DNA of 64,000 nucleotides, taken from positions 133,052,001 through 133,116,000 of the forward strand of contig OX597818.1 in the NCBI GenBank assembly GCA_951406725.2, written 5' to 3'. Below, piece by piece: positions 10,842 through 62,726 of the stretch (position 1 is its first letter; the number at the start of each line of letters is the position of its first letter). Under the pieces are notes generated by a model. The model made no database searches and was not told the DNA's origin. It worked only from the letters and a program-made list of their open reading frames with translations. Made by a program: the position numbers and the translations under genes. The stretch is from Octopus vulgaris. Lineage: Eukaryota.

Positions 10842-11041
10842 AGTTAATCCAAACAAGAAAGCACAAAAAAACACAACGCGAGGACATGGAACAAATATAG
10901 TATTATTGGACGCTCAGAAAAGAAGGAAAGAAGGAGGGTTTAACGTTTCGAGCAGAGCTCTTCGGCGGAAACATAGGAGAAGGAAAGATCCAGAGAAGGG
11001 AAGACAGAGGAAAAAAATCGCCAACGGTACACACGCGGTCA
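10842..11041 (-). mobile_element. Short (TA)n-embedded element with a degenerate hammerhead motif (PLE pseudo-LTR-like)
   Basis: Homologous to 34205-34418. Minus strand 10938-10972 reads GTTT-CCGCCGA-A-GAGC-TCT-GCTC-GAAA-CG-TT-AAAC. Confidence 0.6.
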
Positions 11042-32164: not shown

Positions 32165-34204
<2,040 letters not shown>

Positions 34205-34205
<1 letters not shown>

Positions 34206-34418
34206 ATAGTAGTAAGTCACTAAAAAACAAAGAACAAAACAGAAAAAACGAACGTGAGGGGGTGGTACAATTAAAGTATTAGCAGACGCTCAGGGCAAGA
34301 AAGAAAGATCGTTTAACATTTCGAGCAAACCTCTTATTCAGAAACAGAGGAAAGTCCAATAGAAAAGGAAGATAGAGGGGAAAAAAATCTCCAACAATTC
34401 ACACATGGTTACATTTCA
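34205..34418 (-). mobile_element. Second copy of the 10842-11041 element, with a degenerate hammerhead at 34311-34345
   Basis: Minus strand GTTT-CTGAATA-A-GAG-GTTTG-CTC-GAAA-TG-TT-AAAC, flanked by (TA)n on both sides. Confidence 0.6.
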
Positions 34419-34437
34419 TATATATATGTCTTGGCTA

Positions 34438-34494
<57 letters not shown>

Positions 34495-34536
34495 GAAAGA
34501 ACGGAGTTGAATGACGATTTAACAAAATTCCTTTAT

Positions 34537-34617
34537 TCTCGACATATGTTTCGAAGGCTGCATATTCCTAATTTCGAAGGAATAAGGGGTGCATTATGCT
34601 GCCTTCTCATCAGGAGA
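34537..34617 (-). ncRNA. Type I hammerhead ribozyme with a canonical core
   Basis: UCUC-CUGAUGA-GAAGGC..GCCUUC-GAAA-CAUAUG-UC-GAGA: 4-bp stem I, extended stem II, palindromic helix III. Predicted cleavage between 34541 and 34540. AAUAAA lies immediately downstream. Confidence 0.85.
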
Positions 34618-34761
34618 GACAAGGAACTTATGCTAGCATCAAGATGAACAAAAACTCTTAGATGACTGCCCACTCGGAGTCCATAGTCTGACATGAATTT
34701 GCTACCCAGGTATCAGTTAACCAAATTATCCATACTAGGATAATTCATTCAACTACTTAAA

Positions 34762-34804
<43 letters not shown>

Positions 34805-34811
34805 TTATATT

Positions 34812-34883
<72 letters not shown>

Positions 34884-34955
34884 AATATATATATATATGA
34901 GAGGTATTGGTATCCAGAAGACCCAAGATAGCAGGTAAGACTATGTAAGTGCTGT

Positions 34956-35379
34956 GGAAAAGGATGGATATAGGAAGTGCAAAGGGAAATAAGAGAATGA
35001 AAATTAAAATAAAAATATATGTAGGATGTTGCAGTTCCATTAGCCAAGGAAAGTGCTGTGTAGATTGGGTAGAAATGCTTCATGCCCACGGTATGTAGAT
35101 TCCGATAAGAGTTCATATTTTGTTATTACGAATGGACAGTGTGGAGACATAAATTCCCTTTAAATAAACAGCACATAGAATTTATGTTTCCACACTATCC
35201 ATTTGTAATAACAAAATATGAACTCCTATCAGAATCTACATAACATGGACAAGAAGAATGTCTACCCATTCTACATAGCACTTTCTTTCTGAAACTGCAA
35301 TTGTAATATCTTACATATATTTTCATTTTAATTTTCATTTTCTTATTTTACTTCATACTTCCTATATCCATCCTTTTCC
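34956..35379. repeat. Diverged inverted repeat with arms of about 200 bp and a 21-bp spacer
   Basis: GGAAAAGGATGGATATAGGAAGT...CATAAATTC (34956-35156) versus GAATTTATG...ACTTCCTATATCCATCCTTTTCC (35178-35379). Confidence 0.9.
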
Positions 35380-35435
35380 TAAATAACTCTTTATATTGAA
35401 CCCTACTATTTCCCTCTAGTTAACTCTGTCATACC

Positions 35436-35483
35436 GTCTCTGATGAAAGGATATCCCTAATGTCCCAGAAACAGCTGTAAGAT
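35436..35483 (+). ncRNA. Type I hammerhead motif with a weakened stem II
   Basis: GUCU-CUGAUGA-AAGGAUAU..AUGUCCCA-GAAA-CAGCUG-UA-AGAU. Confidence 0.7.
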
Positions 35484-35705
35484 TACCTTTCTCTTTATAA
35501 ATGTCCTAAAATTCCACACAGCCTTGGCTTGTGGTCTCATTTTATTTAACATATATAGATATACATACATATATTGCCAGTGGCACATAAAATGCGCCAT
35601 CTGAACGTGATCGATGCCAGGTCCGCCTGCCTGGCTTCTGTGCTGGTGGCACGTAAAAAGTACCAACTGATTGTGACTGATGCCAATACCCCTTGACTGG
35701 CTCTT

Positions 35706-36105
35706 GTTAATGATTTTCCCTCACAGCTACATGCACATCTGCCATGTTTTTCTCAGTTCTGCTGGTTGCAGGTCTCCCAGAACGTTCATCGCTACTGACA
35801 TTTTTTGCTATCTTAGAAATATCTGAACCACTCATACACTGGCGTACAGCTCATACACTCCTCTCCATACACTTTCTGCAACTTTGTATAGGACTCTAAG
35901 CAGGTGTTGTCATGACATCTTTCTTTGTCATGGTCAATGCAACGATCACACGTTACACATGTTACTTCCAAGCACTGCTGTAAAGAGTAGAAGTGAGCTA
36001 TAATGTTGAAACTTAGTGCACCTGCACAGCAGAGTTTAAAGTCATTCTGCATGTTTTAGCTTCGTTACTATGGCAACAGTCCAGATGCTTATTGATCAGT
36101 CTTTG
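35706..36105 (-). mobile_element. mariner transposon 5' remnant
   Basis: TIR-like TA|CAAAGACTGATCAATAAGCATCTGGACTG at 36077-36107. Translation KLQKVYGEECMSCTPVYEWFRYF*...DERSGRP is a mariner N-terminal HTH region with a stop. Confidence 0.85.
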
Positions 36106-36120
36106 TATATATATATATAT

Positions 36121-36259
36121 TATATTAAATTAGAGATAAAACCCCTATTAGGCAAATCAAACAATGAAAAACATAAGCCAATACATAAAATTAATTAATT
36201 TATATTATTTTAAATATATCTCAAAAGTATTAAAAGTTTAATAAAAGATAAAGAGTAAA
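36121..36259 (-). repeat. Copy of the 141-bp arm found at 55081-55221
   Basis: TATATTAAATTAGAGATAAAACC...AATAAAAGATAA is nearly identical at both loci. Confidence 0.9.
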
Positions 36260-36311
36260 TAATTCCTTATATTGAACTCTACTATTTCCCTCTAGTTAAC
36301 TCTGTCATATC

Positions 36312-36359
36312 GCCTCTGATGACGGGATATCCCCAATATCCCCGAAACAGCTGTAAGAC
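36312..36359 (+). ncRNA. Type I hammerhead motif (paralogue of 35436-35483)
   Basis: GCCU-CUGAUGA-C-GGGAUAU-CCCCA-AUAUCCC-C-GAAA-CAGCUG-UA-AGAC. C/C mismatch at the base of stem II. Confidence 0.75.
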
Positions 36360-36494
36360 AAACTTTCTCTTTATAAATGTCCTAAAATTCCACACTGCCT
36401 TGGCTTGTTGTCTCATTTTATTTAACATATATAGATATACATACATATATTGCCAGTGGCACATAAAATACACCATCCGAAAGTGGTCAATGTC

Positions 36495-37382: not shown

Positions 37383-37940
37383 CATCATCATCATCATCAT
37401 CATCAGCGTTTAACGTCCGTTTTCCGTGCTAGCACGGGTTGGATGGTTCGACCGGGGTCAGGGGCTGCACCAGGCTCCAGTCTGATCTGGCAGAATTTCT
37501 ACAGCTGGATGCCCTTCCTAACGCCAACCACTCCGCAAGTGTAGTGGGTGCTTTTTACGTGCCACTTGCACAGGTGCCAGGGGGATCCGGCATCGGCCAC
37601 GATCGGTTGGAGCTTTTAATGTGCCACCAGCACGGAAGCCAGCCAAGGCGGCGCTGGCAACGGCCACGTTCAGACGGTGCTTTTTATGTGCCACCGGCAC
37701 AGAAGCCAGTCAAGGCGGCGCTGGCATCGGCCACATTCAGATGGTACTTTTTATGTGCCACCGGCACAGAAGCGAGTTGAGGTGGCGCTGGCAACGGCCA
37801 CGTACAGTCGGTGATTTTTATGTGCCACCGGCACAGGTATCATAACTACTATTTCCGTTGATATTCATTTCGATGTTCATGTTCATGTACTTGACTCAAC
37901 AGGTCTCCTCAAGCACAGCGAGACGTTCCGGGATCCAGGG
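37383..37940 (-). mobile_element. Family C element (probable RTE-type LINE 3' UTR) with a 67-bp tandem array
   Basis: GTGCCAC anchors at 37559, 37621, 37688, 37755 and 37822. The upstream minus strand reads RLAVLEETC*, like an ORF end. (GAT)n tail. Confidence 0.8.
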
Positions 37941-52296: not shown

Positions 52297-52664
52297 TATT
52301 TCTTTACTACCCACAAGGGGCTAAACACAGAGGGGACAAACAAGGACAGACAAACAGATTAAGTCGATTACATCAACCCCAGTGCGTAACTGGTACTTAA
52401 TTTATCGACCCCGAAAGGATGAAAGGCAAAGTCGACCTTGGCGGAATTTGAACTCAGAACGCAACGGCAGACGAAATACCTATTTCTTTACTACCCACAA
52501 GGAGCTAAACACAGAGGGGATAAACAAGGACAGACAAACGGATTAAGTCGATTACATCAACTCCAGTGCATAACTGGTACTTAATTTATCGACCCCGAAA
52601 GGATGAAAGGCAAAGTCGACCTTGGCGGAATTTGAACTCAGAACGTAACGGCAGATGAAATACG
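52297..52664 (-). mobile_element. Tandem dimer of 5'-truncated SINE B
   Basis: Two 184-bp units inside a single TSD GCCATGACTATA at 52285-52296 and 52665-52676. Confidence 0.9.
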
Positions 52665-53103
52665 GCCATGACTATAGTGTAACACACACACACACAAAAA
52701 GAAAAACGACTGCTTATACATTCAAAATATACCTTCTGACTGTGGTTGCATTTGGCATAATGGTTTGCGTATTTGTTGGAAGCTGCCTGAGTTTCATAGA
52801 TAAAATCTATACAGAAGCTTATACACTCACACACATGTACATGAATATATATGCACTTCCCCCACCTCCCTCTGACCACTAACAAACAAAATACTAATAC
52901 CACTCAATTTGCTTTGAGACTGGCCAAATGGATAGACCCTGAAGAAGTTGCCCCAATAATAGTGATAGATTGCATCTGCAACTGCCAGTGGAAACACATG
53001 TAGGTCACAATGATATGCTGTATAAAATAGTGTAAGTGAAAATAAATTTTGAAATTGAATGTTTCTACACTCTTTATAATTATTGCTAATATATATATAT
53101 GTA

Positions 53104-55049: not shown

Positions 55050-55080
55050 CATATACCTATATATATATATATATATATAT

Positions 55081-55448
55081 TATATTAAATTAGAGATAAA
55101 ACCACTATTAGGCAAATCAAACAATGAAAAACTTAAGCCAATACATAAAATTAATTAATTTATATTATTTTAAATATATATCAAAAGTATTAAAAGTTTA
55201 ATAAAAGATAATGAGTAAAACTAAGATAAATATTTCAATTACCTGAAGATTGACTGTAACCATAACTCGAATTATTACGAATTGGACAGCCATGAAACGA
55301 TCGTAGTGTTTTACTCATTATCTTTTATTAAACTTTTAATACTTTTGATATATATTTAAAATAATATAAATTAATTAATTTTATGCATTGGCTTAAGTTT
55401 TTCATTGTTTGATTTGCCTAATAGTGGTTTTATCTCTAATTTAATATA
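55081..55448. repeat. Near-perfect 141-bp inverted repeat with an 86-bp spacer
   Basis: 55081-55221 is the reverse complement of 55308-55448 with about one mismatch by eye. Confidence 0.92.
55240..55308 (+). ncRNA. Type I hammerhead motif in the spacer of the inverted repeat
   Basis: UAC-CUGAAGA-U-UGACUGU..ACAGCCA-U-GAAA-CGAUCG-UA-GUG. Palindromic helix III; U/U at the base of stem II. Confidence 0.7.
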
Positions 55449-55536
55449 ATATAATATTTTACTATAAAATTGGATTCAATCCTAAATCTGATTTTTCCCT
55501 GTAAGTTTCGATTTATTCCCTAATATTTTATTATTA

Positions 55537-55577
<41 letters not shown>

Positions 55578-58889: not shown

Positions 58890-59710
58890 TAATTCATTGG
58901 CATTTAAACTGGCCAGATCTGGCCCAAATATTCTACTTGTTTAATGTTTCAAACTGACCAGAGTTAGCTTCTTACTCCTATTCTACACTGTCATTCTAAA
59001 ATTTAAAAATCATATCATTGAAATCTCAAAGCTAGAAGATGGTGCATGATTAATTCAAAACAATCATCATCATCATTATCATCGTTTAACGTCCGTTCTC
59101 CATGCTAGCATGGGTTGGACGGTTCGACCGGGGATCTGGGAAGCCAGAAGGCTGCACCAGGCTCCGGTCTTATCTGGCAATGTTTCTACAGCTGGATGCC
59201 CTTCCTAACGCCAACCACTCCGTGTGTGTAGTGGGTGCTTTTTACGAGCCACCTGCACTGGTGCCAGGCGAGGCTGGCATCGGCCACAGTCGGATTGGTG
59301 CATTTTACGCGCCACCAGCACGGAAGCCAGTCGAGGCGGCATTGGCTTCGGCCACGATTCGGATGGTGCTTTTTACGTGCCACCGACACGGAAGCCAGTC
59401 GAGGCGGTGCTGGCATCGGCCACGATTCGGATAGAGAATAAATAAACATTATACATGACAGAGTTAAGGCGACAAGCTGGCAGAATTGCTAGCATGCTGG
59501 GCAAAATGCTTAGCAGCATTTCATCCATCTTTACGTTCTAAGTTTAAATTCCACCGAGGCCGACTTTGCCTATCATCTTTTTGGCATTGATAAAATGAGT
59601 ACCAGTTGAGCACGGGGGTCAATGTAATTGACTAGGCCCTTCCCCACAAATTTCAGGCCTTGTGCCTATAGTAGAAGGGATTATATTTGACAGAGTAATG
59701 TGGATGTTTA
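58890..59710. mobile_element. piggyBac-type MITE interrupted by a family C tail (59063-59432, minus) and SINE B' (59467-59688, plus)
   Basis: MITE sequence is homologous to 26572-26785. TGACAGAGT is duplicated around B'. Confidence 0.75.
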
Positions 59711-61849: not shown

Positions 61850-62726
61850 CAATATATCATTGGTAAATCCATCTTCCGCAATGACTGGCCTCCGTGCTGA
61901 GGGCACGTAACAAACACCATCCGAGCGTGGCCGTCCGCCAGCCTCGTCTGGCACCTGTGTCGGTGGCACATAAAAAACACCATCCGAGCGTGGCCGTCTG
62001 CCAGCCTCGTCTGGCACCTGTGTCGGTGGCACATAAAAAACACCATCCGAGCGTGGCCGTCCGCCAGCCTCGTCTGGCACCTGTGTCGGTGACACATAAG
62101 AAAACACCATCCGAGCGTGGCCGTCTGCCAGCCTCGTCTGACACCTGTGTCGGTGACACATAAGAAAACACCATCCGAGCGTGGCCGTCTGCCAGCCTCG
62201 TCTGGCACCTGTGTCGGTGACACATAAGAAAACACCATCCGAGCGTGGCCGTCTGCCAGCCTCGTCTGGCACCTGTGTCGGTGGCACATAAGAAAACACC
62301 ATCCGAGCGTGGCCGTCTGCCAGCCTCGTCTGGCACCTGTGTCGGTGGCACATAAAAAACACCATCCGAGCGTGGCCGTCTGCCAGCCTCGTCTGGCACC
62401 TGTGTCGGTGACACATAAGAAAACACCATCCGAGCGTGGCCGTCTGCCAGCCTCGTCTGGCACCTGTGTCGGTGGCACATGAAAACACTATCCGAGCGTG
62501 GCCGTCTGCCAGCCTCGTCTGGCACCTGTGTCGGTGGCACATAAAATCACCCACTACACTCTCGGAGTGGTTGGCGTTAGGAAGGGCATCCAGCTGTAGA
62601 AACACTGCCACATCTGACTGGCCTGGTGCAGCCTTCGGGCTTCCCAGACCCCAGTTGAACCGTCCAACCCATGCTAGCATGGAAAGCGGACGTTAAACGA
62701 TGATGATGATGATGATGATGATGATG
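61850..62726 (+). mobile_element. Family C element with ten 62-64 bp tandem units (61915-62547)
   Basis: CACCATCCGAGCGTGGCCG anchors at 61915, 61978, 62041, 62105, 62169, 62233, 62297, 62360, 62424 and 62486. GGACGTTAAAC(GAT)n tail. Confidence 0.9.

What the first reader, a model, noticed from the sequence alone, without database searches (positions are those of the whole stretch)
34205..36494. Nest of four hammerhead-ribozyme motifs from three families in 2.3 kb of (TA)n-rich DNA
Seen: motifs at 34311-34345 (minus), 34537-34617 (minus), 35436-35483 (plus) and 36312-36359 (plus), an inverted repeat, a direct repeat, and an arm of the fourth hammerhead family found at 55.2 kb. No RT ORF is present. 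Established: PLE pseudo-LTRs carry such minimal hammerheads, occur in tandem or inverted form, and some PLE clades favour microsatellites; retrozymes are non-coding hammerhead retroelements that yield circular RNAs. Inference: this genome hosts several protein-free, microsatellite-targeting ribozyme elements, and this is an insertion hotspot. Best candidate for an undescribed system in the window.
Basis: partly seen in the sequence, partly recalled or inferred. Interest (0 to 1): 0.75.

Follow-up and report, generated by a model that had tools for sequence, protein, structure and literature searches.

The report
Penelope-element ends piled into a microsatellite
The four self-cutting-RNA (hammerhead) motifs are real, but they are the leftover end pieces of ordinary protein-coding Penelope-like jumping genes that insert into TA repeats; a side result, spliced short copies beside unspliced long ones, likely explains how such elements keep their introns.

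Summary
The motifs, inverted repeat, direct repeat and fourth-family arm are present as described. They are not protein-free elements. [quoted passage not shown] The window holds truncated pseudo-LTR (pLTR) ends with inverted arms, two alternative 3' ends and (TA)n flanks. Motif 1 lacks catalytic G8, motif 4 is a local duplicate of motif 3, and only motif 2 is intact. Such ends occur about once per 15 kb, and 1 of 40 sampled stretches holds a similar three-family cluster. Side result: short copies of A, B and D start at an initiator-like site. In D, copies that start there are mostly spliced; copies reaching upstream mostly keep the intron (upstream reach: 22/27 unspliced, 1/26 spliced). This points to a sense-RNA template primed at either pLTR, and so bears on PLE intron retention. 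Cleavage is untested. The scan has many hammerhead/PLE notes in this genome; none of the eight shown describes these families or the splicing pattern.

The parts
33890..34208 (.). (TA)n-rich tract at the 3' end of insertion A
34210..34416 (-). Family A: solo pLTR of a Neptune-type PLE, starting a few nt after the initiator-like site
   Evidence: coding parent
34311..34345 (-). Hammerhead A, decayed (G8 replaced, helix III palindrome and one helix II pair broken); predicted inactive
34442..34491 (.). (TA)n tract at the inner 3' end of insertion B
34492..34686 (-). Family B: sense pLTR part of a Hydra-type PLE, from 7 nt after the initiator-like site to the inner 3' end
   Evidence: coding parent
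34537..34617 (-). Hammerhead B, intact; palindromic helix III; predicted cut after 34541; predicted to work as a dimer
34687..34760 (+). Family B inverted arm: far end of the optional tail, abutting (TA)n
34761..34898 (.). (TA)n tract between insertions B and C
34899..35150 (-). Family C inverted arm: tail end (34899-34953) joined to the 3' UTR part (34955-35150), hammerhead region missing
35148..35555 (+). Family C: 5'-truncated 3' end of a decayed Hydra-type PLE
35436..35483 (+). Hammerhead C, copy 1; core intact, first helix II pair mismatched; family has an extra A on both sides of helix II
36111..36259 (-). Family D tail fragment without hammerhead, 96% like other D copies, 3' end in a short TA run
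36256..36492 (+). Local duplication of 35380-35616 (C end plus its unique flank)
36312..36359 (+). Hammerhead C, copy 2 (duplicate); helix I weakened
55071..55221 (-). Family D inverted arm of the 55.2-kb insertion
55221..55539 (+). Family D sense pLTR, spliced form (exon joint 55229/55230), hammerhead 55240-55308, far tail end at (TA)n

Best explanation
The region is a pile of end fragments (pseudo-LTRs) of four protein-coding Penelope-like retrotransposon families, plus one local duplication, which likely collected here because their endonucleases likely cut TA-rich DNA. Shown: family membership, upstream RT and GIY-YIG ORFs at other loci, (TA)n flanks, inverted arms, two discrete 3' ends, a shared 5' start in A, B and D, and an exactly removed GT-AG intron in short D copies. 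Inferred: the element RNA starts at an initiator inside the pLTR; the RT-endonuclease nicks (TA)n and primes at one of two sites downstream of the hammerhead; since that sequence occurs in both the 5' and the 3' pLTR of the RNA, priming in the 5' pLTR runs through the uncut hammerhead to the RNA start and gives a short, mostly spliced solo pLTR, while priming in the 3' pLTR gives long, randomly truncated copies that mostly keep the intron; a second cDNA on the other strand gives the inverted arm. The hammerheads would cut only as dimers through the palindromic helix III; in these solo, decayed copies they are likely idle.
For: Coding parents: A loci with PLE RT/EN directly upstream of the pLTR, e.g. 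L381; B ORFs in L282-L287, 93-95% alike, 3 of 6 with an inverted pLTR; C RT and EN in L220; D RT and EN in L351-L357. Clade motifs against Craig 2021 section 11. Two 3' ends: D 57 and 52 of 124 segments, B 48 and 50 of 100, C 28 and 16 of 50; simple-repeat flank in 110/124, 93/100, 33/50 and 23/23 parsed A copies of 30. 5' starts within -10..+20 of a TCATT-like site: A 27/30, B 26/30; C spread over -50..-736. D intron: GT..AG, about 0.65-0.9 kb; reach upstream 22/27 unspliced against 1/26 spliced, Fisher p 4e-9. Three subfamily sites segregate in both short and long D copies. D tail runs on into the ORF in L351. Helix III is a different palindrome in each family, and cofolding pairs it between two molecules for B, C and D. 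Background 26 pLTR hits in 400 kb. Literature: tail = two RT start sites, uncut RNA is the main substrate (PMC11167929); TSS, Inr and intron in the pLTR (PMC2377424).
Against: No full element with both pLTRs was recovered for any of the four families, and no intact single ORF; the longest stop-free piece was 538 aa. Clades rest on motifs, no tree. The B start-site count is biased, since the query favoured copies with the same arm joint. The D counts use exact patterns of unequal length, and a few loci are two arms of one insertion or segmental duplicates (e.g. L240/L241, L311/L312). Short and long D copies are not fully mixed (permutation p 0.0005, nearest neighbour same class in 32 of 36); part of this is forced by the search pattern, but some re-copying of short copies is not excluded. 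Tails here (about 70-140 nt) are longer than the 30-40 nt described. C and D lack a G10.1-C11.1 pair next to G12 (A/A in 29 of 30 parsed C copies, U/U in 46 of 46 parsed D copies), so their activity is open. Initiator status is from sequence likeness, recalled consensus, not from RNA ends.
Confidence: 0.9

Rival explanations
1. Short A, B and D copies are self-propagating non-autonomous elements (SINE-like solo pLTRs): they keep the internal promoter and the priming site and are copied in trans from short master copies.
For: Fixed 5' start that would keep an internal promoter (PMC2377424); short copies outnumber long ones among top hits; short and long D copies differ a little in sequence; pLTRs act in trans in rotifers (PMC3846280).
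Against: No fixed difference: the three subfamily sites occur in both classes; 5 unspliced copies also start at the same site and spliced long copies exist, as expected from processing stages of the full RNA. The sequence is the coding element's own pLTR, not a separate element.
Confidence: 0.25
2. The families are non-LTR retrozymes: tandem hammerhead monomers that give circular RNAs and spread by rolling-circle reverse transcription.
For: Type I hammerheads with palindromic helix III; D unit about 340 nt; one head-to-tail D junction (L238); retrozymes are reported as PLE derivatives (bioRxiv 10.64898/2026.07.22.740005).
Against: 1 head-to-tail case among 26 spliced D loci, with a diverged upstream partner; the 876-nt pair in the window is a genomic duplication with flank; copy ends map to the start site and tails, not to the cut site; all families continue into coding sequence.
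Confidence: 0.04
3. The locus is a special insertion hotspot or a selected ribozyme cluster in which neighbouring hammerheads cooperate.
For: Four insertions in 2.3 kb against 0.15 expected from the mean density; TA tracts 47.8 per 10 kb against 10.0.
Against: L401 has three families in 1.7 kb, and L399, L404, L423 have two hits within 0.8 kb, among 40 stretches. Palindromes differ between families, so cross-dimers would not pair; motifs lie on both strands; three of four are damaged.
Confidence: 0.05
4. Long intron-keeping D copies come from an antisense template, and only the short spliced copies from sense RNA.
For: Antisense templating was proposed to explain intron retention and head-to-head arms (PMC3846280).
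Against: Both classes share the same two 3' ends on (TA)n; spliced long copies exist (L293/L294, L316) and unspliced copies that stop at the sense start site exist (5 of 27). One sense template explains all four classes.
Confidence: 0.12

Closest known systems
Minimal and variant type I hammerheads in pLTRs of metazoan PLEs (Cervera and de la Pena 2014, PMC4209133; parts 1-2 of 4 read)
   Same: Short helix I, long helix II, extra base after A9, palindromic helix III, thousands of solo motifs from truncated PLEs, pairs on opposite strands 100-700 bp apart, intron end next to helix I (as in D. virilis Penelope).
   Different: C and D have an unpaired base on both sides of helix II and no G10.1-C11.1 pair beside G12; B and D have 40-55 nt helix II domains.
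Hydra clade of C-terminal EN+ PLEs, including Hydra-1_Obim (Craig et al. 2021, PMC8557442; sections 11 and 15, passages, supplement rows read)
   Same: DKT, CxCx5C linker, no CCHH, CxxC and CxH around E and N, hammerhead present, (TA)n targets; an octopus family is already listed.
   Different: The listed Hydra-1_Obim hammerhead has another sequence; five short motifs from A, B, C, D and a B relative gave 0 hits in the supplement text (line breaks can hide matches). B, C, D are longer (about 3-4.5 kb) with N-rich ORF inserts; D has a 0.65-0.9 kb intron.
Neptune-type PLEs (as described in PMC8557442)
   Same: Family A parent: DKG, CX2-5CxxC linker, CxxC in the GIY-YIG core, microsatellite flanks.
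   Different: Long CA-rich 3' UTR; parent ORFs found are decayed; no tree built.
Anolis Poseidon element PAc (Frangieh et al. 2024, PMC11167929; part 2 of 4 read)
   Same: Two RT start sites that define the tail, AT-rich target, uncut RNA as template, no RNA ends at the cut site.
   Different: Other clade; tails here are longer; that work, in the part read, does not treat spliced solo pLTRs.
Drosophila virilis Penelope (Schostak et al. 2008, PMC2377424; Arkhipova et al. 2013, PMC3846280; passages read)
   Same: Start site, initiator and intron inside the pLTR; spliced and unspliced RNAs; head-to-head inverted arms; solo pLTRs noted.
   Different: Solo pLTRs were put down to recombination or deletion and the template strand was left open; here solo copies stop at the start site and are mostly spliced.
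Metazoan non-LTR retrozymes (Cervera and de la Pena 2020, PMC7229834, passages; Li et al. 2026 bioRxiv, part 1 of 5)
   Same: Type I hammerhead, short non-coding genomic copies, PLE kinship.
   Different: No tandem monomer arrays; each family has a coding parent with the same sequence.

Membership tests
EN+ PLE pseudo-LTR | RT plus C-terminal GIY-YIG ORF upstream on the same strand | tested here: met
   A; B; C; D (at other loci; ORFs broken)
EN+ PLE pseudo-LTR | Type I hammerhead with palindromic helix III in the terminal repeat | tested here: met
EN+ PLE pseudo-LTR | Inverted 5'-truncated copy at the 5' end | tested here: met
   window B, C and 55.2-kb D; 15 of 26 spliced D loci; 3 of 6 long B loci; not seen for window A
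EN+ PLE pseudo-LTR | Optional tail, i.e. two discrete 3' ends | tested here: met
   B, C, D bimodal; one end only seen for A; tails longer than 30-40 nt
EN+ PLE pseudo-LTR | Partial tandem with a pLTR on both sides of the ORF | tested here: inconclusive
   D tail runs into the ORF in L351; tandem seen for another PLE family; no complete two-pLTR copy of A-D recovered
EN+ PLE pseudo-LTR | Spliceosomal intron near the pLTR start site | tested here: met
   family D only; none seen in A or B between start site and hammerhead
Hydra clade (B, C, D) | DKT in place of DKG | tested here: met
   B and D; region not recovered for C
Hydra clade (B, C, D) | CxCX5C linker | tested here: inconclusive
   met in D; C has CxC with a decayed third position; B shows no linker cysteines
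Hydra clade (B, C, D) | No CCHH in the endonuclease; CxxC and CxH around E and N | tested here: met
   translations
Hydra clade (B, C, D) | Grouping with Hydra references in an RT tree | not tested
   references not held as sequences; B, C, D RT pieces are 38-47% alike and far from the Neptune-type ones; one named relative is from Hydra vulgaris
Neptune type (A) | DKG, CX2-5CxxC linker, CxxC in the GIY-YIG core | tested here: met
Neptune type (A) | Phylogenetic placement | not tested
   no tree
Non-LTR retrozyme | Tandem 150-450 bp monomers, each with a hammerhead | tested here: not met
   no such array in the window or in the loci read; one head-to-tail D junction; no genome-wide tandem scan
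Non-LTR retrozyme | No coding sequence of its own | tested here: not met
Non-LTR retrozyme | Abundant circular monomer RNA | not testable with these tools
   only contigs of runs not on record as RNA
Hammerhead ribozyme | Core C3 U4 G5 A6 N7 G8 A9, G12 A13 A14 A15.1, U16.1 H17 | tested here: met
   met in motifs 2, 3, 4 and 55.2 kb; not met in motif 1 (G8)
Hammerhead ribozyme | G10.1-C11.1 pair closing helix II | tested here: inconclusive
   met in A and B; C and D carry A/A or U/U at that place as the family state
Hammerhead ribozyme | Site-specific self-cleavage | not testable with these tools
   needs in vitro assay; inverted-arm ends show no clear pile-up at the cut site

The most novel reading that the evidence does not exclude
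The genomic copies of family D record the PLE life cycle and solve the intron-retention puzzle: the template is sense RNA that carries the pLTR intron twice; the cap-near copy is spliced, the 3' copy mostly is not, and reverse transcription primed at the 5' tail makes spliced solo pLTRs that end at the start site, while priming at the 3' tail restores the intron. Solo hammerhead pLTRs across animal genomes would then be strong-stop-like products that map PLE start sites and supply the raw material for retrozymes.
Probability: 0.55. Interest if true: 0.55.

Novelty: new member of a known kind. Interest (0 to 1): 0.3.

Why it matters
As a candidate new ribozyme-element system it does not stand: it is PLE debris of a kind present at well over 100,000 places in this genome (extrapolated from 26 hits in 400 kb). 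The value lies in the side result. Craig 2021 calls the meaning of PLE intron retention unknown and Arkhipova 2013 leaves the template strand open; family D gives a countable pattern that favours a sense template with two priming places and makes a direct test possible. It also warns that solo hammerhead repeats with fixed ends can pass for SINEs or retrozymes unless one walks upstream.

Tried and rejected
Rfam scan of the window: no hammerhead at E<=1, only microsatellite-driven miRNA matches. Pfam on two PLE pieces: one weak RVT_1 match below cut-off. First guess that A belonged to the young 784-aa PLE family (L188, L189) was dropped: those A-like copies are separate insertions beside it. 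The RT piece behind C in L015 and the GIY-YIG piece before D in L118 are unrelated neighbours. Idea that D is a circular 345-nt retrozyme, from the junction in L238, was dropped when 29 of 30 loci with the longer start motif ran upstream into a shared UTR. Idea that inverted arms end at the hammerhead cut site: the two window arms end at +3 and +5, but ten loci near that value were selected by my query and the others spread from -24 to +96; not supported. Within-family covariation is not informative for dead copies; only one-sided G-C/G-U changes were seen in B; no covariance model was built. Sequencing runs: no RNA holder listed; contigs only; one contig of a guessed RNA run joins the D exons at GT..AG, but the joined form exists as DNA, so it is no evidence; one search added nothing. 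Lunse et al. on PLE hammerhead variants was not held, seen as a title only; Arkhipova et al. 2003 (introns in PLEs) was not read and may already mention spliced copies. bioRxiv supplements are closed and Repbase/Dfam are not available, so exact family names could not be checked.

Full report
Setting. The window is G000:C5:133052001-133116000 in a 2.8-Gb, 227-contig genome. I take the host to be an octopus; this is inference from recalled repeat types and size, not a call result.

Observation. Motif 2 is a complete type I hammerhead and one of 2 strict-descriptor hits in the window against 0.06 per shuffle. Motif 1 has lost G8 and its helix III palindrome; the family state is intact in most parsed copies. 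Motifs 3 and 4 keep the core words but have damaged helices. Motif 4 lies in a 237-nt duplication of motif 3 with its unique flank (62 of 68 nt alike) and five shared derived changes; 1 of 378 other pairs reaches five. So there are three independent hammerhead insertions (A, B, C), one duplicate, and a ribozyme-less arm of family D. Rfam finds none of them and the core word alone is not enriched.

Families. Each motif belongs to a dispersed high-copy family: first-look candidates 3064 (A), 2296 (B), 2679 (C), 1533 (D); only 40 were scored and 30 fetched per search. Top copies are about 83-86% (A), 85-88% (C), 90-93% (B) and 95-98% (D) alike, so D is young.

Coding parents. I walked upstream by repeated searches. 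C runs through about 1.2 kb of UTR into a GIY-YIG domain and an RT. B extends more than 1.5 kb in 6 of 30 loci, and five of those six, fetched longer, show RT matches and three the endonuclease end, 93-95% alike. D extends into GIY-YIG and RT. A extends through a CA-rich UTR to RT/EN sequence about 50% like a second, near-intact PLE family; several loci such as L381 hold both ORF and pLTR. All parent ORFs seen are broken. Motifs place A with the Neptune type (DKG, CX2-5CxxC) and B, C, D with the Hydra clade (DKT, CxCx5C in D, no CCHH); no tree was built. An octopus Hydra family with hammerhead and (TA)n target is already listed, and 31 recently active Penelope-like families are counted in a 2026 octopus annotation that has no mention of ribozymes in its main text. 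The genome also holds young PLEs with many open 784-aa frames.

Anatomy. Insertions end at one of two places after the cut site: D +150 or +220 (57 and 52 of 124 segments), B +50 or +190 (48 and 50 of 100), C +70-90 or +200 (28 and 16 of 50), nearly always on TA/CA repeats. This is the PLE tail, shown in vitro to be two RT start sites (PMC11167929). Head-to-head arms as in the window are the usual PLE form (PMC8557442). Helix III is a different palindrome in each family, and cofolding pairs it between two RNAs for B, C and D, the dimer design of PMC4209133. C has A/A (29 of 30 parsed) and D U/U (46 of 46 parsed) where G10.1-C11.1 is usual; whether these cut is open.

Hotspot. Eight hammerhead-centred queries gave 26 hits in forty 10-kb stretches taken at round coordinates, one per 15 kb. 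Three in 2.3 kb has Poisson odds near 5e-4 per interval (my arithmetic), which still gives hundreds of such places, and hits are clumped: L401 has three families in 1.7 kb. The nest has five times the mean TA-tract density. Shared target choice is enough.

Side result. Short copies begin at one site: within -10..+20 of a TCATT-like word in 27 of 30 A loci and 26 of 30 B loci (B biased by the query), whereas C starts are spread over 700 nt. D has a GT-AG intron of about 0.65-0.9 kb ending 13-14 nt before the core; the window's 55.2-kb copy carries the exact spliced joint, direct proof of an RNA step. Of all 27 exact matches to first exon plus donor, 22 continue upstream; of all 26 exact matches to the spliced form, 1 does (p 4e-9; a few loci are not independent). 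Five unspliced copies stop at the same start site, and spliced long copies exist. Three subfamily sites are shared by short and long copies, though the classes are not fully mixed (40 of the 54 candidate rows could be cut out, two duplicates dropped). In L351 the tail runs on into the ORF, so the priming sites also exist near the RNA's 5' end. The simplest reading is a sense RNA with the intron twice, spliced near the cap, mostly kept in the 3' pLTR, primed at either tail. Penelope has its start site, initiator and intron in the pLTR (PMC2377424); the template strand was left open, with antisense favoured (PMC3846280), and the meaning of intron retention called unknown. I found no account of this pattern in two searches, but Arkhipova 2003 and Lunse 2016 could not be read.

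Verdict. Real motifs, known kind of element, new family members; not a protein-free system and not a special hotspot. Interest 0.3, carried by the splicing pattern. Earlier notes of this scan on hammerheads in the same genome (8 of 249 shown) concern other motifs; two further look-ups returned nothing.

Noticed in passing
window 10873-11036 (minus): Solo pLTR of an A-related subfamily with a decayed hammerhead, 3' end on (TA)n.
   Followed up: partly
window 52931-53010 (plus): A further hammerhead-like motif with a palindromic-looking helix III, from none of the eight families queried.
   Followed up: no
L181 (G000:C9:10670500-10680400): Young PLE family in 4.4-kb tandems: a 446-aa open frame overlapping a 784-aa RT-EN frame, many equal-scoring copies; its hammerhead core reads UUGAAAA instead of CUGANGA.
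   Followed up: partly
L183, L184: Second PLE family with open frames over 800 aa and a hammerhead core CUGUUGA followed by an extra A; variants CUGUCGA and CUGUGGA occur in sampled DNA.
   Followed up: partly
window 36256-36259: The D arm meets the duplicated C segment over a 4-nt overlap, so the duplication may have formed during D integration; the copies differ somewhat more (15 of 164) than D's age suggests.
   Followed up: partly
L282-L287, L352-L357: Long asparagine-rich stretches between RT and endonuclease in B and D, like those described in rotifer Penelope ORFs.
   Followed up: no
L403:9692-9755: A stretch that reads as a hammerhead on both strands within 64 nt; probably a very short head-to-head insertion.
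   Followed up: no
window 52297-52663, 37589-37836, 59234-59432, 61912-62544: Tandem 184-nt and 64-68-nt repeats of other dispersed families; the flank copied with C belongs to the 64-68-nt type.
   Followed up: no
L284 (about 818-1822 on the locus + strand): A 335-aa intronless frame that looks like an aminergic G-protein-coupled receptor, next to a long B insertion.
   Followed up: no
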